Shown here piece by piece: positions 1 to 14,836 of a stretch of DNA of 64,000 bases. The position numbers were made by a program, and so were the translations under genes. The number at the start of each line of letters is the position of its first letter. The stretch's first letter is position 1. Source of the DNA: Alphaproteobacteria bacterium bin98 (GTDB lineage Bacteria; Pseudomonadota; Alphaproteobacteria; Bin98); contig MPNG01000003.1 in NCBI GenBank assembly GCA_002238905.1, forward strand, positions 34,121 to 98,120, given 5' to 3'. The notes below the pieces were generated by a model. It made no database searches. It saw nothing but the letters and a program-made list of their open reading frames with translations, and was not told the DNA's origin.

Positions 1-1024
1 TATCAATATATGGTGGGTTTTTGCCTGGTTTTTGTATAAAACATAAAGAGTTTTCCTTTAAACCATACCGCAAAGATAGGTACTGGTTCACCCTGATAAA
101 AAATTGCCCCACCTGCGCTAAATAAGGGTGAACCCTGCAGTCAACTTTTGTAAGACAGACAGAAAGTGTTTTTTCCACACCAAAACGCACAATTTTCAAT
201 TCACTCCTGGGCTTTCTTTGCATCATACACACAAAATCTGTCACAGTTTTAACAGGCCTCCCATCGCACGAAACAATGACATCACCCACTTTCAGTGCGA
301 CATCAGAATAAAGCATTTTCTCTGATACAAGAATACCTTCTTCATAACCGCTTTCTCCCATAAAAATATGTTTTTCCCACGGCGCCATATACCTAAAACT
401 TAAACCCTTGAGAAAATAAAAATCTCGTCGCTTGCCACCAGACAGCACATGTTCTGTATCCTCCATAAGCTCTTTAACAACTCGGCATGGAACCCATCCC
501 GCAAGAGTGTTAATCGCATACGCCTCATCGTTCTCATTTAAATACAACGCCGCCGGCTCTGAAGCGAGGTCTGGGCTTCCCACAGATTGTCCAGGAAACC
601 CTTTGTGGGATTGATAATCATGGCTAGCATAAAACATAATGCTTTTTTCAACACTATCGCTGACAAAATCCAAAACCTGCTTAAAGCCAGAAGTCGCTGT
701 TAGTGCCTTACTATCAACAAATCGCACTTCTTCACAGCGCGGGAAAGCGCCATTTCCCTCTTCAAGCTGCAGGGTGCAAAGATCGTACAAAGGTTGCACA
801 GCCACAATACGCGCGACACGCCGCTCTCCATGGCTTTGCAAAATAATTTTTCCTCCAACAAAGTAATTGGTTACCTTGCTAAACTGTGCCAAAAACAGAT
901 GGCGCTTTTTATCCACTAAACTGGCCGATGACTCTGGAGCGCCTTTAATGTCATGCACTACAGACACCATGCAATTTTTACACCACAACTCTGCACACAA
1001 AAAACATAACACTATCAACAACAT
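1..1024 (-). CDS. Secreted HtrA/DegP-like trypsin-fold + PDZ protein, paralog 0 (partial; the C-terminus runs off the window edge)
   Basis: Manual translation of the minus strand from the ATG at 1024..1022 gives MLLIVLCFLCAELWC...LVDKKRHLFLAQ...DLCTLQLEE...VALKVGDVIVSCDGRPVKTV with no stop before position 1. It shares the LIDK(K/N)(K/R)xL box and the PDZ-like GDV..V.G motif with the five downstream paralogs. The partial ORF is absent from the ORF track because it has no stop inside the window. Confidence 0.55.
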   Translation of the reverse strand, partial: MLLIVLCFLCAELWCKNCMVSVVHDIKGAPESSASLVDKKRHLFLAQFSKVTNYFVGGKIILQSHGERRVARIVAVQPLYDLCTLQLEEGNGAFPRCEEVRFVDSKALTATSGFKQVLDFVSDSVEKSIMFYASHDYQSHKGFPGQSVGSPDLASEPAALYLNENDEAYAINTLAGWVPCRVVKELMEDTEHVLSGGKRRDFYFLKGLSFRYMAPWEKHIFMGESGYEEGILVSEKMLYSDVALKVGDVIVSCDGRPVKTVTDFVCMMQRKPRSELKIVRFGVEKTLSVCLTKVDCRVHPYLAQVGQFFIRVNQYLSLRYGLKENSLCFIQKPGKNPPYID

Positions 1025-2304
1025 AAACCCCCTCCGATTGGCATAGCAAAGATTGTCGAGGAAGCGCGCGTCTCAAACATAACGAATCTCTTACGACCTT
1101 GCACTGGCTTGAGCATAATGGGCTTCCCTAATCTCAAACAGTCTCTGAGCGTTACATCATCCCACTCTTTTTTTCCATCAATACTGTCTAGATAGAGCAA
1201 AGGATTTAGCATCTTTGGAGGAGAGGAGTACGCAAGAGGCAGTTGCTCATAGTGCGCCACATACGCCAGCCACCTTTGAGGGTCATGCAAATCCCATAAT
1301 GTTCTCAGGAAAGGCGTAATACGGAAAAAAATCATACCACGTTCCTCAATGCGCTCAGGAAACCCAGAAGGCTTTACAGAAGATGGCAGCGATATCACTT
1401 CTCCATCTCTCAGCACCTTCACATCTTGACTATGATAAAAAATACCCTCTGCCGCATACCAAACCTCTTTGCCGTTCATGTGATCTATGTGGCGATATTT
1501 AACAATATCGCCTTCCTTAAACACTCCATCACCCTTCACAACACAATAAATATGCAACGCGTAAGGTTCATCACTGCTGAAAGATAGTTGGGCATCAAGA
1601 GTGTTTGTGTACCACCTTAAGTTGCTTGTTTCTATAAGAGCTGCGGTATAGGTGGTTTCTTTTTGTTGATAGTTTTTATTTGCCTGTAAGCGCTCTAAGG
1701 CATAAGAAATTTTCTCACACGAGGCATAGGTATTGCCCCACACTTGAATACCTACAATTTCATGATTGTCATTCAGCAACAAACCACCATTAACGTCCGT
1801 TATAAGACGCGCATGACCACAACCATCTTGTGTCTTGCCCTCAATCCTTGAGGGTGTCACAAAATAAGACATTTTCCCAAGCTTGGCTAAAAAACCGTAT
1901 ATCTGAATATCTCCCGTATGCTGTGTTGCTTTCACAGGAAGCGCTGGCATATCAGCCGGCACATGATCTGCTTCTACAAGGGCAAAGTCTGCATAAATAT
2001 CTTGATAAATCACATGCGCTGGAGAAGAGGATCCATCTGCAAAAAACATTGTCACTGTTGCATCACTTTGACACTCAAAAAATGTATTATCTGTTAAAAA
2101 CAAACGCTTATTTTTATCTATCAGCGCACCCATGGTTTGTTGCTTATAGTGCTCTTTTACACCCCCGTTTCCCTTATGCACTATGACATGATCACTCTGA
2201 ACACACACAATGGCCAAACTTTTTCCAGGGTCCGCAGAACACCAAACAGCACAAGATAAAAGCATCCAAAAAACCTTAAGCACAACACACCCACTTAGAG
2301 TCAA
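1015..2304 (-). CDS. Secreted HtrA-like trypsin-fold/PDZ paralog 1; the catalytic His and Ser positions appear substituted
   Basis: The 429 aa ORF has a hydrophobic N-terminus. LIDKNKRLFLTDNTFF occupies the position of the HtrA His box (..ILTNxHVV). DIYADFALVEAD is the Asp box, VNGGLLLNDNHEIVGIQ replaces GNSGGPL, and the PDZ-like segment is GDIVKYRHIDHMNGKEV. Its stop overlaps the start of paralog 0. Confidence 0.55.
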   Translation of the reverse strand: MTLSGCVVLKVFWMLLSCAVWCSADPGKSLAIVCVQSDHVIVHKGNGGVKEHYKQQTMGALIDKNKRLFLTDNTFFECQSDATVTMFFADGSSSPAHVIYQDIYADFALVEADHVPADMPALPVKATQHTGDIQIYGFLAKLGKMSYFVTPSRIEGKTQDGCGHARLITDVNGGLLLNDNHEIVGIQVWGNTYASCEKISYALERLQANKNYQQKETTYTAALIETSNLRWYTNTLDAQLSFSSDEPYALHIYCVVKGDGVFKEGDIVKYRHIDHMNGKEVWYAAEGIFYHSQDVKVLRDGEVISLPSSVKPSGFPERIEERGMIFFRITPFLRTLWDLHDPQRWLAYVAHYEQLPLAYSSPPKMLNPLLYLDSIDGKKEWDDVTLRDCLRLGKPIMLKPVQGRKRFVMFETRASSTIFAMPIGGGLCC

Positions 2305-3619
2305 AGGACTGCTTATATTCTGTCATTTTTTTATGATACGGGCAAAAACGAAGCACCATTCGGGGAGCGTACACCCAGGATCGCCACTCTATGTTTATAG
2401 GCTCTGTCGATAATACCACTCCTTCTTTGGAACATTCGGATAACAACGTATAAACATCATCCAGAGAGTGGACTTCTTTGCCATTCATTGCGTATACAAA
2501 CGCCTTAGGATTATAGTTATTGCCTTTCTTGGACATACACGCCAAACGCCTTCCATGTCGTCGAAAAACATGTGATGTTTCAAAAAATATATGCGATCCA
2601 TAATCAATCACGCGATCAGGCGTGAAGGTATCAAGAAAACAAATGGGTGCCTCTACCGTCATCATTTTTCCCATACGCCAAATACGCACACTCACGGTTT
2701 TTTTTCCTTTTGCGATAGCTTTTTCTAAAACACGCCACACATCTGTTATACGATAAACCGGCTCACCTTCTACAAAAAAGATATGATCTCTCACCGCAAA
2801 AGGCATGTTCTGCAGGTGATCACTTGCGTTGCATTCAGAAACTGTCAAAGGACGTTTGTGCACCATAGAGCTATCATATCCTTCAGGCCACACAATCGGA
2901 AGGCCCATAAATTCTGAAAATTCTTCCATAGATTTGTGAGAGAGGAGAGCGCCTATATGGGCAGTAAAAAACACCCCTTGCTTTTTAAAATAATCGCATT
3001 GAAACACAATAGGTGGAGAGGCAGCAATATACAAGCTGTGATCGCTCTTTCGATCAAAGCGCACACCAATCACCGCGCCATTTTCACCAACTACTGGCAC
3101 ATTGAGGGATGGTTCCGCATCTTTGCGCGCCGTATAAGCAGCCGTCATAGGCAACAATCGTGCAGAAGACATCACATCACCCAGCATAACGTTCGTGCTT
3201 GTTTGAGAATGAAGGTCCGAGAGAAACGATACTTTTTGATGCAGCGTGCCCCATTGATCACTCAGCTTGTACTCTTTGTGCGCTTGTAGTTTCTTTCTAT
3301 CACTCTCTTCTACCTGAAACAGCGTAAGAGCACCGATGGATCCCACACAGTGCGCTTTTAACGGATCAGAGCTCCAGGAAACCAAGTGATATTCTCCCAC
3401 TATTGGCAAATTATAAAACTGCAACGATGAGTCAAGGCTCACGCACAAGCCGCGCTCACGATCTATTAAAAACGCGATTTTATCAACCCACAAACTCATA
3501 ACCAATGGCCCTTCAGGATGTATTTGAAAAATGCCATCCAACTCTTTCTCTTTTTGCACAAAGAGCATACAGCACAAAGCCGTCATAACAATAATGCCAA
3601 TAATGATCTTACTACGCAC
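2276..3619 (-). CDS. Secreted HtrA-like trypsin-fold/PDZ paralog 2 (degenerate active site)
   Basis: The 447 aa ORF starts with a signal-like N-terminus, MRSKIIIGIIVMTALCCMLF. LIDRERGLCVSLDSSL sits at the His-box position with no His, and GENGAVIGV sits at the Ser-box position. The PDZ-like segment is AMNGKEVHSLDDVYTLL. It ends in CCA like paralog 1 (..LCC). Confidence 0.5.
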   Translation of the reverse strand: MRSKIIIGIIVMTALCCMLFVQKEKELDGIFQIHPEGPLVMSLWVDKIAFLIDRERGLCVSLDSSLQFYNLPIVGEYHLVSWSSDPLKAHCVGSIGALTLFQVEESDRKKLQAHKEYKLSDQWGTLHQKVSFLSDLHSQTSTNVMLGDVMSSARLLPMTAAYTARKDAEPSLNVPVVGENGAVIGVRFDRKSDHSLYIAASPPIVFQCDYFKKQGVFFTAHIGALLSHKSMEEFSEFMGLPIVWPEGYDSSMVHKRPLTVSECNASDHLQNMPFAVRDHIFFVEGEPVYRITDVWRVLEKAIAKGKKTVSVRIWRMGKMMTVEAPICFLDTFTPDRVIDYGSHIFFETSHVFRRHGRRLACMSKKGNNYNPKAFVYAMNGKEVHSLDDVYTLLSECSKEGVVLSTEPINIEWRSWVYAPRMVLRFCPYHKKMTEYKQSFDSKWVCCA

Positions 3620-4949
3620 TTTTTTCTCCTTCTACAACCCTTTGTTCTGTTATGCCAATACCTTTTTTCAGAGACAAAAGAAGGCCCTTTTGTGCATGTG
3701 CGGGTATTGATAGTTCCTCTAACACAACCCGCTCATTAAATGGGTGAGACAAATAGTGCATGCCGACAGTTAAATAGGGAAGCCCGATCAAAGGCAATAA
3801 ATCATCAAGAGTGTGAATACTTTTACCATTAATGAAGCATACCCATTGATAGAGATTATTGCAGCAACTGTCCAGAACTAACCGTGATATTTCACCAAGA
3901 GGTCGCTCCCACATTTCCCAAAAATCTTTTCCCCCGTAGTGCAGCGCTTTCTCATCTTGTGCGTCATACGTATAAACGGGAAGCGGCATATCCAAAACGC
4001 TTTGTGTGGTGGATCTATAAACTGTTATAGTAGCGCCAGATTCAGCCAAAGATGCACGGTATACATCACCCAGGGTAGGATTCTTTTTTCCATTGACCTG
4101 CAAAACAACATCTCCCACTTCCAGGGGATGCGAATGTTTGATCTCACATGGATCAAAAAAAATCCTTTGAATGTACAGGTAACGCTTATGGCTTTCCAAG
4201 TGCTTTGATGGCCCCAACATCTCTACCAAACCAGATCCATCTTCATACACAAATTCGTATCCTCTCAAAGCCCGACTGGTTATGCCATCATCTTCACAAA
4301 TCAAGCGTTTCTTTGCTCTTTCAACAAATTTTTTCACTTGGTAGGAGGGAATAATAGTTGTACAATTGCGCGAACCTTGAAACACCATACCAACCAATTT
4401 TTTATCACGACTTAACAAAGGAGAACCACTTGATCCAGCGTGAAAATTCAAAGGCCCCACCGCACTATAAGATTCCATTACAATGTTCATACGCTGAAAC
4501 GATGTGTCAGACCCTCCCATCAAACCTTTGCCAAAGATAAAACCACCACCACTAGAGTTGTTAATAGTAAAAACTTCCATACCAACATAAACGTCATCTA
4601 CAAATCCTGCGATTTCTTCATAGTCCTCTAAAAACGCAGGGTCTACCTGCAAAGCCGCCAAATCGCTGGCACGATCAATCAACACGACCCTAGCTTCTGC
4701 AGAACTGCCATTTTTTGTGTGCAAAAAATAATTTCCTCCATTACAATAGAACACTGCATGAGCGTTAGATAAAACAAGGCCTCTTTTTTTATCCACAATT
4801 ACAGAGCTTGCGCAGTAATGAGTGCTACGCCCTCGGCGCACAACTATCTGCGTTGTGGGCATAAACACTTTACACAAATAGTTTTCCATGTGAGTGTCTG
4901 CAAAAGCTGATTTTGACATAAAAAATAGAAGGAGCACCACCCACATCAT
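3612..4949 (-). CDS. HtrA/DegP-family periplasmic serine protease with PDZ domain; the only array member with an intact His-Asp-Ser triad
   Basis: The 445 aa ORF has a signal peptide, MMWVVLLLFFMSKSAFA. VIVDKKRGLVLSNAHAV is the HtrA His box, ARVVLIDRASDLAALQV is the Asp box and NFHAGSSGSPLLSRDKKLVGMVFQG is the GNSGGPL-like Ser box. The PDZ motif is LEVGDVVLQVNGKKNPTLGDVYRAS. Confidence 0.75.
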   Translation of the reverse strand: MMWVVLLLFFMSKSAFADTHMENYLCKVFMPTTQIVVRRGRSTHYCASSVIVDKKRGLVLSNAHAVFYCNGGNYFLHTKNGSSAEARVVLIDRASDLAALQVDPAFLEDYEEIAGFVDDVYVGMEVFTINNSSGGGFIFGKGLMGGSDTSFQRMNIVMESYSAVGPLNFHAGSSGSPLLSRDKKLVGMVFQGSRNCTTIIPSYQVKKFVERAKKRLICEDDGITSRALRGYEFVYEDGSGLVEMLGPSKHLESHKRYLYIQRIFFDPCEIKHSHPLEVGDVVLQVNGKKNPTLGDVYRASLAESGATITVYRSTTQSVLDMPLPVYTYDAQDEKALHYGGKDFWEMWERPLGEISRLVLDSCCNNLYQWVCFINGKSIHTLDDLLPLIGLPYLTVGMHYLSHPFNERVVLEELSIPAHAQKGLLLSLKKGIGITEQRVVEGEKSA

Positions 4950-6124
4950 AACTTCCCTCTTAATATTGCTGGCTGTATGCAGTCTTGCAAGATCTTCGAG
5001 TGAAGTTTTTGCTCAAGGCCTATTTGTTTCTGCTCCAGGATAATTTTTAACTTCTCTAGCGTCATCTTTCTGCCGTCACTTGTAAACACCTGGTAGGCTT
5101 TTTTTCTACCACGTGGCAAACAAACCGCCGTACCCACAGAGGCTTTCCAGTTAAAATACTCTGCTGTAAAAGGTGATTGAATAAAACATACAGCATCTGC
5201 GTTCGCGATACAGCCTGCTTGCAATTGGGTAAACCTTTCCGTCGGAAGCAGCACCTTTTGCAAACCTCCATCTCGCCACACCTCCCATTCCACAAAAGGT
5301 ATGTTGGCAGACTCTATCACTGCATTGTAGTGGCTTGGATAAAGGCCATTCACTGCAAATAAAACATCACAAACTTTCAAGCCGTTCCGATTCTCTGTCA
5401 TGACGGAAAAAAGAAAAGGCTCTCCTGGATACCTCTGACTAAAGATATTGAGCATTTCTTCTGTCACAACTTTATGTGTCAAAAGAGTCGATGCGTAAAA
5501 TGTTGCGCTCTCCAGAGGAACATAGCGCATTTCTTCCGTGTGTCGAGATAGGAGCATTTTTAAGGATTTTTTTATAAATTTTGCACGCACAAAAGAAGCA
5601 TTTATAGCAACACCAACTAAACCATCTTTAGAAAACAATAAGGGTAGAGCGCTGCTTTCATTCCATCTTTGCCAAAAGTATCCATTCGTGCGCTGATAGA
5701 CATTATTTTCATAAGCCAAGAGGGTTTCTGTGACTTCCGACTCATTCGCATGATAAGACCACACTTGTGTTGGCAAATTTTCATGATCATCAAGTGGTAT
5801 GGCATGGCTTTCTTCAGGAATTTCTTCAGCTTGCAAAAACATAAAGCCATGTATGGGGTGAACAAAAACAACACGAGCGTTCACTAACATACCCCCATGC
5901 AAACACAGCCTTACCTTTGTTACAGGCGCAATATGCACCAAGGAAAGGAACGCAACAAAAAGCTTTTTTTCCTTGTCAATAAGAGCGGTGGGAACTATGT
6001 GTTTTTCTGGCGAACCTTCTTTAAAAACTTCTACCATTGCGGACCCAACGCTTTGCGACACACACGCAGGATCTGGCGCAGCGCCACACAAAGACAAAAC
6101 ATATAGTAGCGCTATCCACTTCAT
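4946..6124 (-). CDS. Secreted HtrA-like trypsin-fold/PDZ paralog 4 (degenerate active site)
   Basis: The ORF track extends to 6259, but the likely start is the internal Met of MKWIALLYVLSLCGAAP (signal peptide), at about 6124, which abuts the paralog-5 stop. ALIDKEKKLFVAFLSLVHIA sits at the His-box position and SKDGLVGVAINASF at the Ser-box position. The PDZ-like segment is CDVLFAVNGLYPSHYNAV. Confidence 0.5.
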   Translation of the reverse strand: MKWIALLYVLSLCGAAPDPACVSQSVGSAMVEVFKEGSPEKHIVPTALIDKEKKLFVAFLSLVHIAPVTKVRLCLHGGMLVNARVVFVHPIHGFMFLQAEEIPEESHAIPLDDHENLPTQVWSYHANESEVTETLLAYENNVYQRTNGYFWQRWNESSALPLLFSKDGLVGVAINASFVRAKFIKKSLKMLLSRHTEEMRYVPLESATFYASTLLTHKVVTEEMLNIFSQRYPGEPFLFSVMTENRNGLKVCDVLFAVNGLYPSHYNAVIESANIPFVEWEVWRDGGLQKVLLPTERFTQLQAGCIANADAVCFIQSPFTAEYFNWKASVGTAVCLPRGRKKAYQVFTSDGRKMTLEKLKIILEQKQIGLEQKLHSKILQDCIQPAILRGKL

Positions 6125-7509
6125 GCGGCCCAACCTGCTCTTTTGGTGCACTGCTGTTCTAAATTGACAAATCTGGATAGTTTTTTTGATGGCAAAAAAC
6201 AGCCTTTGTTTGTACTGGTAAGTAGCAAATCTATACCACTCAAAGCAATATTTTGGCAAGCAAGCATCGCTATATCCACCAAATCTGAAAAGTTTTTAAC
6301 AACCTGACCATTTGCGGACTGCACAAAAAATCTATCACCTTGGGAATAAGGGGTAAAAGGGTCAGCAAAGCGCATCACCACGCCACCCATACCTTCCATG
6401 CCTGGCACACGCGCATCGGTAAACAGAAGTGGTCCCCAATAAAATAAGCGCTTAGGGGCATAATCCAGTGAATTAGATACGGGCGTTTGCACCGTCTTTT
6501 TGACGCCTCTTCTGAGCACCGTTAACTGAATCATAGGGGCATTATCTTCGGCCGCTTTATCCAAAAAGGACTGTAGCAGATCCGGGTTTCTGCTTATATC
6601 ATGCTCACAACCTTGGTAGTGCAAAGAAAGCACAACATCGCCAATATGGGGGGCATTTTCTTCCACAGGCATCCTAACGTTCTTCACTATGAGTTGCTGA
6701 GCATATCCATAACGCTCCATAATCCCTTTGGGAAGTGTAGCAGTATCAATGCCATCAAAACAGCATCGGTCAACCAAAAACCCCCCTTTTAAGCTAGTAG
6801 CCGGCAAAAACCCACGTTTTGTATTTTTCCCTTTCTTTTTAAACGCAGCCACCAGATCTCTGATACCCCCTATGTCCATCACACGCATATTGCGCCGCCT
6901 TCCTTGCATGACACCGCAGCACTTATTGTCTTTATTGAGAAGGAGCATGCCTTGCACAACATCCTCACACTCAAGAGGACAAGCCACAGTAACGCGCATT
7001 TTGTTATTAATCGATGGTTCTTCCAAGATTCTTTTGTGTAGCTCTTTGAAATAGGGTGTCGCGTGAAACAAAAATACCTCTTGGCCTTGATGCACAGTCT
7101 CTTGTGCAAAACGCACCTCCTCATCATTGGCAATATTATCAAGAAACGAATCCTCTATCTGCATAATAAGCGTTGATGTGGGATGATCTATAAAGACAAT
7201 GTGTGCATCCATAGAGCCGTGGGTAGCGCTATAAATATAGCAGCGCTCATCTCCCGTAAAGTAGGTTGCGTTATCTGTATACACCAGCATAAGCCCTCTC
7301 TTTTTATCAATCAGCATGCCAACAGATTTCTTAAACGTTGATTCACTTTGCAACCCTACATAGCGCGGAGCAAAAGAAACTTTATACCAAGTAGGAACTG
7401 ACGAAAACAGCCATGAACAAATGAAAAATAAGAAAAATGACCGCCTCATGGGCACAACATAACACACTAGCGCAACCCAGAAAAGAATTCTTGCAAAAGT
7501 GCGGCGCAA
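6121..7509 (-). CDS. Secreted HtrA-like trypsin-fold/PDZ paralog 5 (degenerate active site)
   Basis: The 462 aa ORF has a hydrophobic N-terminus. MLIDKKRGLMLVYTDNATYF sits at the His-box position with no His in register. The PDZ-like segment is HIGDVVLSLHYQGCEHD. The start region overlaps the tadA stop. Confidence 0.5.
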   Translation of the reverse strand: MRRTFARILFWVALVCYVVPMRRSFFLFFICSWLFSSVPTWYKVSFAPRYVGLQSESTFKKSVGMLIDKKRGLMLVYTDNATYFTGDERCYIYSATHGSMDAHIVFIDHPTSTLIMQIEDSFLDNIANDEEVRFAQETVHQGQEVFLFHATPYFKELHKRILEEPSINNKMRVTVACPLECEDVVQGMLLLNKDNKCCGVMQGRRRNMRVMDIGGIRDLVAAFKKKGKNTKRGFLPATSLKGGFLVDRCCFDGIDTATLPKGIMERYGYAQQLIVKNVRMPVEENAPHIGDVVLSLHYQGCEHDISRNPDLLQSFLDKAAEDNAPMIQLTVLRRGVKKTVQTPVSNSLDYAPKRLFYWGPLLFTDARVPGMEGMGGVVMRFADPFTPYSQGDRFFVQSANGQVVKNFSDLVDIAMLACQNIALSGIDLLLTSTNKGCFLPSKKLSRFVNLEQQCTKRAGWAA

Positions 7510-10709: not shown

Positions 10710-11315
10710 CTATTGAAAATATGAAACAAGGGCTTTTTTTAATGCAGATAGTCCAAAAAAGACTATAAGAAGCGGTGACACTAACACAGCCCTCTGCATC
10801 CATGTGTTGGCCTTCTGACGCATAATATACGCCAACAATCCATAACAGCAGTAAGCGGTACTGCTGCCTAAAGCAGCTCCCAAAGCCACTTGTAGTTTTT
10901 CTATAAGGAGTAATTCTGCGCTAAGTGTAGGTGTCATCACCATCAGGTTAATAACCAACACCGTGGTAAAAGGACACACCAACGAAAGCGCAGCCGGCCA
11001 CCAAACTGCAGCGGCGCTTGGCTCACCATAGCGTATATTTTTATTGGAAACATGAGCGTGTGCAGCCACACATAAAACCAAAATACCCATCACCGTATAA
11101 AGAGCAGTAGGAAAATTCTCCACCAATACAACAATGTACGTATTTAAAAACATAGCCAACATAACGTGACACCCTATGGAACAACCCAACAAGGCTTGAG
11201 CTATTAAAAAATCTCTCAGTGATCGTGTCGCCGCCATACACAACAACAAAATCACCACTGGCCCAACCGGCAAAACAATATAGGCCCCTATTTTGATTCC
11301 TTCCCAAAAAAACAT
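10710..11315 (-). CDS. LysE/RhtB-type amino-acid exporter family membrane protein (paralog 3 of 3)
   Basis: The 201 aa polytopic membrane protein has the N-terminus MFFWEGIKIGAYIVLPVGPVVILLLCMA. It is paralogous to the two upstream genes. Confidence 0.55.
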   Translation of the reverse strand: MFFWEGIKIGAYIVLPVGPVVILLLCMAATRSLRDFLIAQALLGCSIGCHVMLAMFLNTYIVVLVENFPTALYTVMGILVLCVAAHAHVSNKNIRYGEPSAAAVWWPAALSLVCPFTTVLVINLMVMTPTLSAELLLIEKLQVALGAALGSSTAYCCYGLLAYIMRQKANTWMQRAVLVSPLLIVFFGLSALKKALVSYFQ

Positions 11316-11323
11316 ATCTCCTC

Positions 11324-11941
11324 CTAAAACCAGGATCCTCCTTTATAAGTCTGCAGGGATTGATGAAGTGAGGATAAACCATAAAAAACTAAAATCAGTG
11401 GTGTATACATCACACCATTTTTCATCCAACTATCTGCTTTCTTACGTAAAAGGAACAATATAAAACCTTCAGAACAATAAACGCTCATGCTACCCAAAAT
11501 AGCACCAAGCGCCACACATAACTTATCGGTTAGCTCCAAATCCACACACAAAGAAGGGGTGTTAATCATTAAATTAATCACAAGTACCGTAGTGAAAGGA
11601 CACAAAAGAGACAAAACCCCAGGACCCCATAATTTTGTGTTTCTCGGCAAACCATAGCGAATCTTTTGATTAGTAGCGTACAAACGCCAAGCCGAAAACA
11701 ATACCAGAAACCCCATCATTGCATAAAGCTCCACCGGAAATCGCTCTACAAGCTCTCTAATGTATGCGTGAAAAGACATGGCCACCATAAAGTGTGTGCC
11801 CACAGCCAATCCAACAAGAAACTGTGCTACTAAAAAATCTTTCATGGAGCGCAAGATGGCCATACACAAAAGAAGAATCACCACAGGACCAACCGGTAGC
11901 GCTAAAGCAGCGCCAATTTTGAAACCTTCAACTATAAACAT
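11324..11941 (-). CDS. LysE/RhtB-type exporter family membrane protein (paralog 2 of 3)
   Basis: The 205 aa protein has MFIVEGFKIGAALALPVGPVVILLLCMA and RYG, CPFTTVLVINLM motifs shared with 10710..11315. Confidence 0.55.
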   Translation of the reverse strand: MFIVEGFKIGAALALPVGPVVILLLCMAILRSMKDFLVAQFLVGLAVGTHFMVAMSFHAYIRELVERFPVELYAMMGFLVLFSAWRLYATNQKIRYGLPRNTKLWGPGVLSLLCPFTTVLVINLMINTPSLCVDLELTDKLCVALGAILGSMSVYCSEGFILFLLRKKADSWMKNGVMYTPLILVFYGLSSLHQSLQTYKGGSWF

Positions 11942-12559
11942 TTAAAACCACAATACATAAGCCTGATACAAACTCTCAGCGCTATAAAACAAAACAATAA
12001 TAGGCGCCAACTTCACAAGAAAAATACTCACTCTTAGCGACATTTGTTCTGAAAGCCTAAACACCATAAACGCTAAAGAAAAGTAGGTAGCCGCGCCACT
12101 CAACCCTGTTGCAAGAGAGGTTACTGCTATCTCCAAAGGTGTGAAGGGCACCTGCAGCCTCTCTGTGCCAAGAAACAAATTCAACACCAGCAAACCGATA
12201 AAAGGACACAACAAAGAAATCAAAGCAGGCGTGTAAACCTTAGTGACAGGCCGAATGTTACGAATATCAATTTTGCGACCAGTCATAAAAGCGTTGAGGG
12301 CAACAAGCGCCACTGCAACACCCATCACAAAATAAAACTGCACAGCATACTCTTTTACATACTGAAGAATCACTGCCTGAAAAACTAAAGCGACTGTTGT
12401 ATGCGCCACTATAGACATACCTGCCCAAAAGGATGCCAAAGGCCACATGTTCCAGCCTTTTGTGGTTAAAACCATGCTAATTAATGTAATAGCAACAGGC
12501 CCTATAGGCAAAGCTACCTTAAAGCCTATTAAGAAACCTTCCATTATTTTATCTAGCAT
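11942..12559 (-). CDS. LysE/RhtB-type exporter family membrane protein (paralog 1 of 3)
   Basis: The 205 aa protein has MEGFLIGFKVALPIGPVAITLISM and LLCPFIGLLVLNL, matching the two downstream paralogs. Confidence 0.55.
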   Translation of the reverse strand: MLDKIMEGFLIGFKVALPIGPVAITLISMVLTTKGWNMWPLASFWAGMSIVAHTTVALVFQAVILQYVKEYAVQFYFVMGVAVALVALNAFMTGRKIDIRNIRPVTKVYTPALISLLCPFIGLLVLNLFLGTERLQVPFTPLEIAVTSLATGLSGAATYFSLAFMVFRLSEQMSLRVSIFLVKLAPIIVLFYSAESLYQAYVLWF

Positions 12560-13717: not shown

Positions 13718-14836
13718 TTACATCTTTGAAGGCACTTTTTGAGCAAGAGCTTCTTCCAGAAAGCGCATAATATCTCCCTGCAGAACTTTATCTGGCTCTT
13801 GATGTTCAACGTTTGTGCGCAAATCTTTCACCAATCGATAAGGGTGCAAAACATAAGAGCGAATTTGGTGGCCCCAACTAATACTTTCTTTTTCTACTTG
13901 CGCATCTTTTTCTTTCTTTTCTGCAAGGCGAGCTGCGTAAAGACGAGAACGCAGCATTTTCATCGCACTATCTTTATTGCGGTGCTGAGATCTCTCACTT
14001 TGGCACTGCACCACAATACCAGAAGGCATATGGGTAATGCGCACGGCGCTGTCGGTTTTGTTGACATGCTGCCCACCGGCGCCTGAAGCTCTGTAGGTAT
14101 CAATGCGCAAATCTTTATCTTCCACTACCACCATAATGGTTTCATCCACTATAGGCACCACAAAAACAGAAGCAAAACTTGTGTGTCTTTTTCCAGAAGA
14201 ATTAAAAGGGGATTGGCGCACCAAGCGGTGAATGCCGCTTTCTGTTTTTAAAAACCCAAAGGCATACTCTCCCTCAAAACGTAGCGTTCCACCTTTAATG
14301 CCAGCTTCTTCACCTTCCACGTAATCGTCCACTATCACCTTATGGCTCTGCTGCTGCCCAAAGCGCATATACATCGTGAAAAGCATTTCTGCCCAATCTT
14401 GAGCATCCGTGCCACCTGCTCCACTTTGCACATGCACATAGCACCCCTTTTTATCTTCAGGGGAGCTCAGCATAATATGATAACTCAGTGTGTGTACACG
14501 CTTAGCCAGGGCACCAGAAGAAGCATTCAGGTCTGTCAGCATGTCTTCATCTTTTTCTTGGCGCAAAAAGTCTAGCATTTCCTGGGCATGCGCATGCTGA
14601 TTTGTGTAATTGGCGATAGTTTCACATACACCATTCACTTGGGCGTATTCTTGCGTTAAAGCACGGGCGTTATCTGGATTGTCCCACAACGCATCTTGTT
14701 CAATAGCCTCACGCAGCGATTCTTTTTTTGCCAAGAGCTCATCCCAGCGAACAAAATCTTTGCACTGCAGCAGCCCTTTTTCCACCAAGCGCAGTGCTGA
14801 CTGCACCGTTAACAAAACCTCTGAATAATCCATCAC
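13718..14836 (-). CDS. prfB: Peptide chain release factor 2, encoded as a single uninterrupted ORF
   Basis: The 372 aa ORF has SGAGGQHVNKTDSAVRITHMPSGIVVQCQSERSQHRNK (GGQ motif) and an SPF tripeptide context. No internal stop or frameshift is required. Confidence 0.85.
   Translation of the reverse strand: MMDYSEVLLTVQSALRLVEKGLLQCKDFVRWDELLAKKESLREAIEQDALWDNPDNARALTQEYAQVNGVCETIANYTNQHAHAQEMLDFLRQEKDEDMLTDLNASSGALAKRVHTLSYHIMLSSPEDKKGCYVHVQSGAGGTDAQDWAEMLFTMYMRFGQQQSHKVIVDDYVEGEEAGIKGGTLRFEGEYAFGFLKTESGIHRLVRQSPFNSSGKRHTSFASVFVVPIVDETIMVVVEDKDLRIDTYRASGAGGQHVNKTDSAVRITHMPSGIVVQCQSERSQHRNKDSAMKMLRSRLYAARLAEKKEKDAQVEKESISWGHQIRSYVLHPYRLVKDLRTNVEHQEPDKVLQGDIMRFLEEALAQKVPSKM

What the first reader, a model, noticed from the sequence alone, without database searches (positions are those of the whole stretch)
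3612..4949. Only one array member retains the Ser-protease catalytic triad; the rest look like pseudoproteases
The 3612..4949 protein has all three HtrA boxes in register: SNAHAV (His), DLAALQV (Asp) and GSSGSPLL (Ser). In the other five copies the His-box position reads TDNTFF, SLDSSL, AQFSKV, YTDNATYF or AFLSLVHIA. The Ser-box position reads VNGGLLL, GENGAVIG or SKDGLVGV. These are substituted or shifted. This one-active, several-inactive pattern is typical of pseudoenzyme families that act as binding proteins, chaperones or decoys. Examples include eukaryotic iRhoms and bacterial DegP-like chaperones.
Basis: seen in the sequence. Interest (0 to 1): 0.6.

Follow-up and report, generated by a model that had tools for sequence, protein, structure and literature searches.

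The report
One active HtrA, five pseudoprotease paralogs
A sponge-associated alphaproteobacterium carries a tightly packed operon of six diverged HtrA-type protease genes, of which only the third keeps its catalytic residues; the same arrangement in distant relatives indicates the five dead copies are kept for a non-catalytic job, probably as partners of the live one.

Summary
Six tandem minus-strand genes (c1-c6) are homologous HtrA-like proteins of about 20% mutual identity. The sixth runs off the left edge of the window. Only c3 (3612..4949) has His64/Asp96/Ser174, in register with human HTRA1.

Also, c2 keeps the Ser and c5/c6 keep the Asp. None of the five has the His.

These are not decaying genes:
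- Complete syntenic six-gene arrays occur in three other deeply diverged lineages, and three more contigs hold partial arrays.
- The catalytic copy is always third, and all copies show strict positional orthology.
- Positions 1, 2, 4, 5 and 6 lack a complete triad everywhere.
- dN/dS is about 0.16-0.26 for dead copies, similar to 0.19 for the live one.
- AlphaFold models of c4 and c5 match Deg2, Deg9, DegQ and DegP structures.

The family belongs to the Nma111/DEG7-like HtrA branch. There, an active and a degenerate repeat also occur fused in one protein or as adjacent gene pairs.

The best reading, which is inferred, is a co-expressed periplasmic module of one protease plus five non-catalytic scaffold or regulator subunits. 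Profile comparisons pair the copies (1,4), (2,5), (3,6), which suggests a duplicated three-gene unit. I rate it a new variant of a known kind.

The parts
6121..7449 (-). c1: HtrA-fold pseudoprotease, 442 aa (an alternative upstream TTG start lies at 7509). Catalytic columns read D or N (His), S/T (Asp) and Q (Ser). It has an N-terminal hydrophobic, signal-like segment.
   Evidence: blastp against c3 gives E=8e-9. The leave-one-out profile scores 51 bits. Its orthologs are B1 and C1; A1 is its counterpart by position only (no BLAST hit).
4946..6124 (-). c2: pseudoprotease, 392 aa (the ORF extends upstream to 6259). His is replaced by S and Asp by G. The Ser is kept in this lineage only. Its start overlaps the c1 stop by 4 nt.
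   Evidence: (32 bits). Its orthologs A2, B2 and C2 have a gap, C and Y at the Ser column.
3612..4949 (-). c3: the only copy with a complete catalytic triad, 445 aa. His64 is at 4758-4760, Asp96 at 4662-4664 and Ser174 at 4428-4430. The architecture is a protease domain followed by PDZ-like domains.
   Evidence: Pfam Trypsin_2 6.3e-12. HTRA1, HTRA2 and DegQ hits with aligned motifs. NCBIfam Do-family 1.3e-8. Orthologs A3, B3, D3 and F3 keep H/D/S, and C3 has H/D/C.
2276..3619 (-). c4: pseudoprotease, 447 aa. Catalytic columns read S (His; poorly aligned), A (Asp) and L (Ser). Its start overlaps the c3 stop by 8 nt.
   Evidence: The AlphaFold2 model has pLDDT 80.2 and pTM 0.80. Foldseek against PDB returns Deg9, Deg2, DegQ and DegP at E 1e-17 to 1e-14 over 430-480 columns. 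Seven orthologs lack the triad.
1015..2265 (-). c5: pseudoprotease, 416 aa (an alternative TTG start at 2304 gives a fuller signal peptide). His is replaced by T and Ser by N. The Asp is kept here but is G or C in the orthologs.
   Evidence: The AlphaFold2 model has pLDDT 76.3 and pTM 0.78. Foldseek against PDB returns DegQ, Deg2, DegP and M. tuberculosis HtrA at E about 2e-12. The ortholog alignment is A6.
1..1024 (-). c6: pseudoprotease. The first 341 of 411 codons are in the window, and the rest runs off the left edge. His is replaced by S and the Ser by V or P. The Asp is kept here but is G in all six orthologs. Its start overlaps the c5 stop by 10 nt.
   Evidence: The full gene is L025:13926-15161 and equals P0012. 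Its orthologs include P0135 and P0157.

Best explanation
The locus is a conserved, co-expressed operon of six exported HtrA-family paralogs. Its relatives are of the Nma111/DEG7-like type.

Shown:
- Only the third gene (c3) keeps the His-Asp-Ser triad.
- The other five keep the chymotrypsin-like protease fold plus the PDZ-like domains, but have lost the catalytic residues.
- This 1+5 pattern, the gene order and the tight packing of the genes are conserved in distant relatives, under purifying selection.

Inferred: the five dead copies act as non-catalytic partners of c3. HtrA proteases work as trimers and as multiples of trimers. The most likely role of the dead copies is therefore to form hetero-oligomers with c3, or to dock onto it. 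In that role they would supply the oligomer scaffold and extra PDZ and substrate-binding surfaces, and they would gate its activity. Two precedents exist: the degenerate protease repeat of DEG7 drives trimerisation, and the pseudoprotease MamO activates the protease MamE.

The array probably arose in place from a single active gene. A three-gene unit formed first and was then duplicated, giving the pairs c1/c4, c2/c5 and c3/c6. c6 then lost its catalytic residues.
For: Triad and homology:
- The triad is complete only in c3.
- All six copies are homologous.

Conservation of the array:
- Complete syntenic six-gene arrays, with the active copy third, occur in L036 (on a 1.47-Mb contig), L037/L038 and L041. 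Partial arrays occur in L040, L034 and L035.
- Best BLAST hits are nearly always the same-position copy in other arrays.
- Flanking housekeeping proteins of these lineages are only 33-82% identical (mostly 35-62%), so the array is old.
- dN/dS between lineages E and F is 0.19, 0.26 and 0.16 for c4, c5 and c6, against 0.19 for active c3.
- No invariant His or Cys exists in any pseudo orthogroup, and the only invariant Ser is S74 in OG1.

Fold and export:
- The c4 and c5 models match HtrA structures along their full length.
- Start and stop codons overlap by 4-16 nt or lie within 5-16 nt in all lineages. Promoter-like and terminator-like sites are no more frequent than in shuffled sequence.
- All copies have an N-terminal hydrophobic export-like segment.
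- The window also encodes SecA, an Omp85-family protein and MurJ, so the cell has a periplasm.

Family context:
- Nearest relatives carry Trypsin_2 + PDZ + PDZ_1 (PF12812). They include two-repeat proteins whose second repeat appears degenerate in the examples inspected.
- Independent two-gene pairs, an active gene followed by an inactive one, occur in other bacteria.
- The best-scoring single-repeat relative outside the arrays, P0014, is single-copy and lies near tadA and prfB, as the array does.
- Orthogroup profiles pair reciprocally as (1,4), (2,5), (3,6), and this is largely stable to jackknifing.

Published precedents: PMC3194040 for DEG7 and PMC4794232 for MamO/MamE.
Against: - No physical interaction, expression or activity data exist, and no multimer prediction could be run. 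Assembly with c3 is inferred only from operon structure and precedent.
- All six copies evolve fast (20-32% identity between lineages). This fits envelope proteins, but it also fits host-interaction proteins.
- dS is near saturation (1.3-2.2), so the dN/dS values are approximate.
- The AlphaFold alignments were dominated by active HtrA relatives, which may bias the models towards that fold.
- The (1,4) pairing is not fully robust, because og4 prefers og3 in 3 of 5 jackknife runs.
- Lineage F has an extra c3-like copy, so the number six is not absolute.
Confidence: 0.6

Rival explanations
1. The five dead copies are autonomous periplasmic binding proteins or holdase chaperones. They would use their PDZ domains and dead substrate clefts, work independently of c3, and share an operon with it only because of common regulation.
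For: The HtrA fold and PDZ-like domains are retained. The most invariant residues shared by all copies lie in the first PDZ-like region, namely the GD motif and R312/G314. From general knowledge, catalytically dead DegP (S210A) still acts as a chaperone.
Against: Five distinct autonomous chaperones kept in fixed order beside one protease in a roughly 1.5-Mb genome is harder to explain than subunits of one machine. The tight start/stop overlaps suggest coupled, stoichiometric synthesis. In DEG7 and in MamO/MamE the degenerate unit works with the active one.
Confidence: 0.22
2. The dead copies are exported host-interaction proteins of a sponge symbiont, acting as decoys, adhesins or inhibitors of host factors. 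On this view, rapid divergence reflects an arms race.
For: The organism is found in Aplysina aerophoba metagenomes. Related arrays come from a Tara metagenome sample and other metagenomes. The array proteins are 20-32% identical between lineages, against 35-62% for most flanking housekeeping proteins.
Against: The active copy diverges just as fast as the dead ones. dN/dS is well below 1. No eukaryote-like domains or secretion-system genes were seen beside the array. Strict one-to-one orthology with no copy-number flux is unlike typical effector families.
Confidence: 0.1
3. Some of the five copies are still hydrolases that use non-canonical residues. Examples would be the Ser kept in c2, the Cys or Thr at the nucleophile column in c4 orthologs, or the shifted His in B1, E4 and E6.
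For: W2 keeps the nucleophile Ser. D4 and E4 have Cys and F4 has Thr at that column. B1 can be aligned with a His if a 6-residue insertion is allowed. C3, an ortholog of the active copy, has Cys in place of Ser.
Against: None of these residues is conserved within its orthogroup. Every candidate lacks at least two of the three triad positions. The oxyanion-hole motif GxSGxP is eroded in most of them.
Confidence: 0.05
4. The five copies are non-functional relics of tandem duplication that are simply decaying.
For: Loss of catalytic residues and very low identity between paralogs.
Against: All ORFs of 390-475 codons are intact in the four complete arrays. The only split is in L040 c5, which falls at a run of unknown residues (X), probably an assembly gap. 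Positional orthologs persist across lineages whose housekeeping proteins are only about 50% identical. dN/dS is about 0.2. The genome is reduced, with a relative's contig of 1.47 Mb.
Confidence: 0.02

Closest known systems
DEG7 (plants) / Nma111 (fungi) and bacterial two-repeat HtrA proteins of about 900-1000 aa
   Same: They lie on the same branch of the HtrA family. They are the best non-self hits of the array profile and carry Trypsin_2 + PDZ + PDZ_1. They combine one active protease unit with a degenerate one that has lost the triad. In DEG7 the degenerate domain mediates trimerisation (PMC3194040).
   Different: There, the two units are fused in one polypeptide in a 1:1 ratio. Here, each unit is a separate gene and the ratio is 1 active to 5 degenerate. 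Pfam PDZ_1 is not detected in the window proteins. The single-copy relative P0014 and the independent pairs suggest the dead copies arose by local duplication rather than by splitting a fused gene.
MamO / MamE of magnetotactic Alphaproteobacteria
   Same: This is an HtrA/trypsin-like pseudoprotease encoded in the same gene cluster as an active HtrA protease. The dead partner is required for, and activates, proteolysis by the live one (PMC4794232). That paper also reports repeated independent origins of such pseudoproteases.
   Different: From my own knowledge, MamO has a surface di-His metal-binding motif and an added membrane transporter-like domain, and it acts in magnetosome biomineralisation. 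Nothing of that kind is seen here. NCBIfam MamE hits are only marginal (E about 0.03). That system has one dead partner, not five.
DegP / DegQ / DegS (bacterial periplasmic HtrA) and plant Deg2 / Deg9
   Same: They are the closest solved structures to the c4 and c5 models and the closest by sequence to c3. They share the periplasmic or organellar location, the protease plus PDZ architecture, and assembly from trimers.
   Different: Those are homo-oligomers of active subunits. Sequence identity to them is 10-17%. None is known to me as a conserved multi-paralog operon with a single catalytic member.
Two-gene active + inactive HtrA pairs in other bacteria (L044:4411-7476 and L045:2-2732)
   Same: They belong to the same subfamily. 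An active gene is followed directly by a triad-less paralog.
   Different: They have only two genes and a different neighbourhood, with RNase T downstream. The inactive member (P0071, P0060) is not specifically related to any of the five dead orthogroups, so this looks like an independent loss. As far as I could find, these pairs are undescribed.

Membership tests
HtrA / DegP family (MEROPS S1C) | Chymotrypsin-fold (trypsin-like) protease domain | tested here: met
   c3 hits Pfam Trypsin_2 at 6e-12 and PDB HtrA proteins. The c4 and c5 models match Deg9, Deg2, DegQ and DegP at E 1e-17 to 1e-12. All six orthogroups score against an active outgroup profile at hhalign E 1e-24 to 1e-61.
HtrA / DegP family (MEROPS S1C) | Catalytic triad His-Asp-Ser in the conserved motifs | tested here: met
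   This is met for c3 only (H64, D96, S174). It is not met for c1, c2, c4, c5 or c6, nor for their orthologs in six other lineages. Those five are therefore HtrA-fold homologs but not peptidases of the family.
HtrA / DegP family (MEROPS S1C) | At least one C-terminal PDZ domain | tested here: inconclusive
   Pfam PDZ_2 and PDZ_6 hits are all below the curated cut-offs (E 0.007-0.3). However, the phmmer alignment of c3 to HTRA1 runs through the PDZ domain. The c4 and c5 models also align over 430-480 columns to two-PDZ HtrA proteins.
HtrA / DegP family (MEROPS S1C) | Trimer-based oligomeric assembly | not testable with these tools
   No multimer prediction or experimental data were available.
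Nma111 / DEG7 two-repeat HtrA proteins | Two HtrA repeats (one active, one degenerate) in one polypeptide of about 900-1100 aa | tested here: not met
   Each array gene encodes a single repeat of 392-447 aa, separated from its neighbours by stop codons.
Nma111 / DEG7 two-repeat HtrA proteins | PDZ_1 (PF12812) second PDZ-like domain | tested here: not met
   No PF12812 hit at E<=1 in the five full-length window proteins c1-c5. It is present in the relatives P0013, P0015 and P0021, and weakly in P0014 and P0019.
MamO-type repurposed pseudoprotease | Degenerate triad in a trypsin-like domain encoded next to an active HtrA | tested here: met
   This shows functional resemblance only.
MamO-type repurposed pseudoprotease | Sequence membership of the MamO/MamE clade, and the surface di-His metal site | tested here: not met
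   NCBIfam MamE gives only E 0.025-0.027 and 13 bits against a cut-off of 800. No invariant His exists in any dead orthogroup.

The most novel reading that the evidence does not exclude
The six paralogs are the obligate subunits of one hetero-oligomeric periplasmic HtrA machine. It would consist of two different hetero-trimers (c1-c2-c3 and c4-c5-c6) stacked like the DegP hexamer, with a single catalytic site. It would have evolved from a homo-oligomer by triplication, then block duplication, then loss of catalytic sites. That would make it a bacterial, ATP-independent parallel to the eukaryotic proteasome beta ring or to CCT.
Probability: 0.25. Interest if true: 0.8.

Novelty: new variant of a known kind. 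Interest (0 to 1): 0.6.

Why it matters
HtrA proteases are textbook homo-oligomers. Dead HtrA units are so far known as a fused second repeat (DEG7/Nma111) or as a single partner (MamO).

This locus would be different: a fixed-order operon with one live and five dead HtrA paralogs, conserved across deeply diverged small-genome Alphaproteobacteria from sponge and other metagenomes. It would be a natural system for three questions:
- how a homo-oligomeric protease becomes a hetero-oligomer;
- what dead subunits contribute, whether scaffold, gating or substrate selection;
- why a reduced genome spends about 8 kb on them.

The five dead proteins are invisible to Pfam, and the one whose public name was seen (c5) is annotated 'hypothetical protein'. 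This analysis therefore also assigns a fold and a family to five orphan orthogroups.

Tried and rejected
- Word-indexed protein searches with c3 and with the six-copy profile returned essentially only the organism's own proteins and weak DegQ hits. The exhaustive HMMER search was needed to find relatives.
It gave no close genome.
- A metagenome-contig scan with the c5 ortholog alignment found nothing. I did not use the permitted second scan, because the look-up of encoding contigs had already supplied the orthologous arrays.
- I tested whether the dead copies descend from the degenerate C-terminal repeat of two-repeat proteins. They do score higher on a C-repeat HMM than on an N-repeat HMM. 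I do not rely on this, because the N-repeat profile penalises missing catalytic motifs. In addition, the single-copy relative P0014 and the independent pairs point to local duplication.
- The promoter and terminator scan across the array was no better than shuffled sequence.
- Rfam found only tRNAs in the window.
- My 'active outgroup' profile turned out to contain a near-copy of B1 (P0088) and three other triad-less proteins. I removed them before the hhalign comparisons.
Full report
**What is in the window.** Positions 1-7509 of the minus strand carry six consecutive ORFs of about 390-450 codons:
- c1 6121..7449 (gene call of 442 aa; a longer ORF runs to 7509)
- c2 4946..6124
- c3 3612..4949
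- c4 2276..3619
- c5 1015..2265
- c6 from 1024 leftwards, cut by the window edge

The same contig occurs in public assemblies. These include the NCBI MAG GCA_026710745.1 ('Alphaproteobacteria bacterium'), several JGI metagenomes and Logan SRR6214543. L025 is identical to the window over 14,949 shared bases and gives the full 411-aa c6. SRR6214543 is a metagenome of the sponge Aplysina aerophoba (bioRxiv 10.1101/2024.01.09.574914).

Neighbouring genes overlap by 4-10 nt, or lie 10 nt apart at c4/c5. The array follows tadA. At its far end it meets a dksA/traR-type gene on the opposite strand. The rest of the window encodes ordinary Gram-negative housekeeping genes such as LeuRS, RF2, SecA, an Omp85-family protein, MurJ, GlmU, GlmS, RecG and an Hsp70.

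**Checking the observation.** c3 is clearly HtrA-like. It hits Pfam Trypsin_2 at 6.3e-12 and the NCBIfam Do family at 1.3e-8. phmmer against PDB finds HTRA1, HTRA2, HTRA3 and DegQ. In that alignment SNAHAV, DLAALQV and GSSGSP sit over HTRA1 TNAHVV, DIALIKI and GNSGGP. This gives His64, Asp96 and Ser174.

The paralogs share only 17-22% identity, so I tested homology directly:
- blastp links c1 to c3 at 8e-9.
- Each copy scores 13-51 bits against an HMM built from the other five, while 500 shuffles of it reach at most 9 bits.
- hhalign between orthogroup profiles gives 93-100% probability for every pair.

I read the catalytic columns from MAFFT alignments that include active relatives and from hmmalign to an outgroup profile. 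The two agree wherever hmmalign places the residues:

| Copy | His column | Asp column | Ser column |
|---|---|---|---|
| c1 | D or N | S/T | Q |
| c2 | S | G | S (kept) |
| c3 | H (kept) | D (kept) | S (kept) |
| c4 | S (poorly aligned) | A | L |
| c5 | T | D (kept) | N |
| c6 | S | D (kept) | V or P |

The true Ser-box equivalents are ESSALPLL and PSLNVPVV.

**Relatives and conservation.** Word-indexed searches found only the organism's own proteins. An exhaustive HMMER search with the six-copy profile found 2064 relatives.

Contexts of the closest relatives revealed orthologous arrays:
- L036 lies on a 1.465-Mb contig. It has prfB, an Fe-S biogenesis gene, an exonuclease gene, S21, tadA, then six genes, then dksA, Smr, Tim44 and malic enzyme, as in the window.
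- L037/L038 and L041 also hold complete six-gene arrays.
- L040 (a Tara sample), L034 and L035 hold partial arrays.

In an all-against-all BLAST, nearly every protein's best hits are the same-position proteins of other arrays (A1 had no hits above the threshold). The six-fold state therefore predates these lineages. The lineages are deep: most flanking housekeeping proteins are only 35-62% identical (range 33-82%), while the array proteins are 20-32% identical.

Across the arrays:
- Position 3 always keeps His and Asp. It keeps Ser too, except in L041, where the nucleophile is Cys.
- Positions 1, 2, 4, 5 and 6 lack the His in all seven lineages in the MAFFT alignment. One copy, B1, can be aligned with a His but lacks the Asp and the Ser.
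- These positions mostly have Gly at the Asp column and no conserved Ser.
- The Ser in c2 and the Asp in c5/c6 of the window are lineage-specific.
- No dead orthogroup has an invariant His or Cys. The only invariant Ser is S74 in OG1, which has four sequences.

dN/dS between the two closest lineages is 0.19 (c4), 0.26 (c5) and 0.16 (c6), against 0.19 for the active copy. dS is near saturation.

**Fold.** AlphaFold2 models were built with an 87-sequence alignment.
- c4 gave pLDDT 80.2 and pTM 0.80. Its best PDB matches are Deg9, Deg2, DegQ and DegP at E 1e-17 to 1e-14 over 430-480 aligned columns.
- c5 gave pLDDT 76.3 and pTM 0.78. It matches DegQ, Deg2, DegP and M. tuberculosis HtrA at about 2e-12.

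The dead copies therefore keep the whole HtrA architecture. One caveat is that the alignments were rich in active HtrA relatives. All array proteins start with a hydrophobic, signal-like segment.

**Family placement and origin.** The nearest relatives outside the arrays are single-repeat proteins of about 480 aa and two-repeat proteins of 900-1100 aa. They carry Trypsin_2 + PDZ + PDZ_1, which is the Nma111/DEG7-like branch.

P0014, the best-scoring single-repeat relative outside the arrays, is a single active gene lying near tadA and prfB. This suggests that the array grew in place.

Among 75 single-repeat relatives, three lack the triad. Two of these (P0071 and P0060) lie directly downstream of a paralogous gene, and the one beside P0071 has the full triad. 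Pairing of an active with an inactive copy therefore recurs in this branch, either fused or as adjacent genes.

In profile-profile comparisons, OG3 is by far the closest to the active outgroup (score 462, against 189-248 for the others). Reciprocal best partners are (1,4), (2,5) and (3,6). Under jackknifing, the 3-6 pairing always holds, 2-5 nearly always holds, and 1-4 holds less firmly. BLAST cross-position hits agree. This points to duplication of a three-gene unit, with c6 a former active copy.

**Interpretation.** The following are shown:
- one catalytic and five non-catalytic HtrA-fold paralogs;
- fixed gene order;
- close packing of the genes;
- likely export;
- ancient origin and purifying selection.

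The following is inferred. The dead copies work with c3, most plausibly as hetero-oligomer subunits or as docking regulators. This rests on three points: HtrA proteins assemble from trimers, DEG7 trimerises through its degenerate domain (PMC3194040), and MamO activates MamE (PMC4794232).

The rivals are autonomous chaperones, host-directed decoys, cryptic catalysis and plain decay. The last two are weakly supported or effectively excluded.

**Novelty.** I found no description of this array. NCBI names c3 'serine protease', and the one dead copy whose public name was returned (c5) is 'hypothetical protein'. The principle of a dead HtrA unit partnering a live one is known. The conserved 1+5 multi-gene form, and the possible origin from two triplets, are new. 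I rate it a new variant of a known kind, with interest 0.6.

Noticed in passing
L041:6188-7561 (P0106): In one lineage, the ortholog of the active copy has Cys instead of the nucleophile Ser (GGGSCGAP), while keeping His and Asp. It could be a cysteine-nucleophile HtrA, or it could be an assembly error.
   Followed up: partly
window 1-7449, with orthogroup profiles from L034-L041: Reciprocal best profile-profile partners are c1/c4, c2/c5 and c3/c6. This suggests that the six-gene array is a duplicated three-gene unit. HtrA proteins are built from trimers.
   Followed up: yes
L044:4411-7476 and L045:2-2732: In unrelated bacteria a triad-less paralog (P0071, P0060) sits directly downstream of another HtrA gene of the same subfamily, and an RNase T gene follows. 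The upstream gene in L044 has the full triad. The one in L045 is cut at the contig end but keeps the Asp and Ser boxes. These pairs appear to be undescribed.
   Followed up: partly
L035:2-532: One lineage has an extra c3-like gene fragment directly upstream of its active c3 (54% identity to it). The array there may therefore have more than six genes.
   Followed up: no
window 10710-12559 (- strand): There are three tandem paralogous ORFs of 201-205 aa, rich in hydrophobic residues, with no Pfam hit on record. The same region holds a single gene of this size in L036 and two in L037.
   Followed up: no
window 13718-14836 (- strand): The RF2 (prfB) gene reads as one uninterrupted 372-codon ORF starting with GTG. 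It therefore seems to lack the programmed +1 frameshift found in many bacteria.
   Followed up: no
window 1-64000: GC skew on the plus strand is negative in 31 of 32 2-kb bins, and the cumulative skew falls almost monotonically to -4.6. The window therefore appears to contain no replication origin or terminus, and most of its genes lie on the minus strand.
   Followed up: no
L036 (ENA ERZ26695794, contig ctg497673): A relative with the same six-gene array sits on a single 1,465,401-bp contig. This hints that the clade has small genomes of about 1.5 Mb.
   Followed up: no
L040:3114-4420: The c5 ortholog in the Tara contig is called as two genes. The split coincides with a run of unknown residues (X) in the translation, probably an assembly gap rather than a real disruption.
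   Followed up: partly
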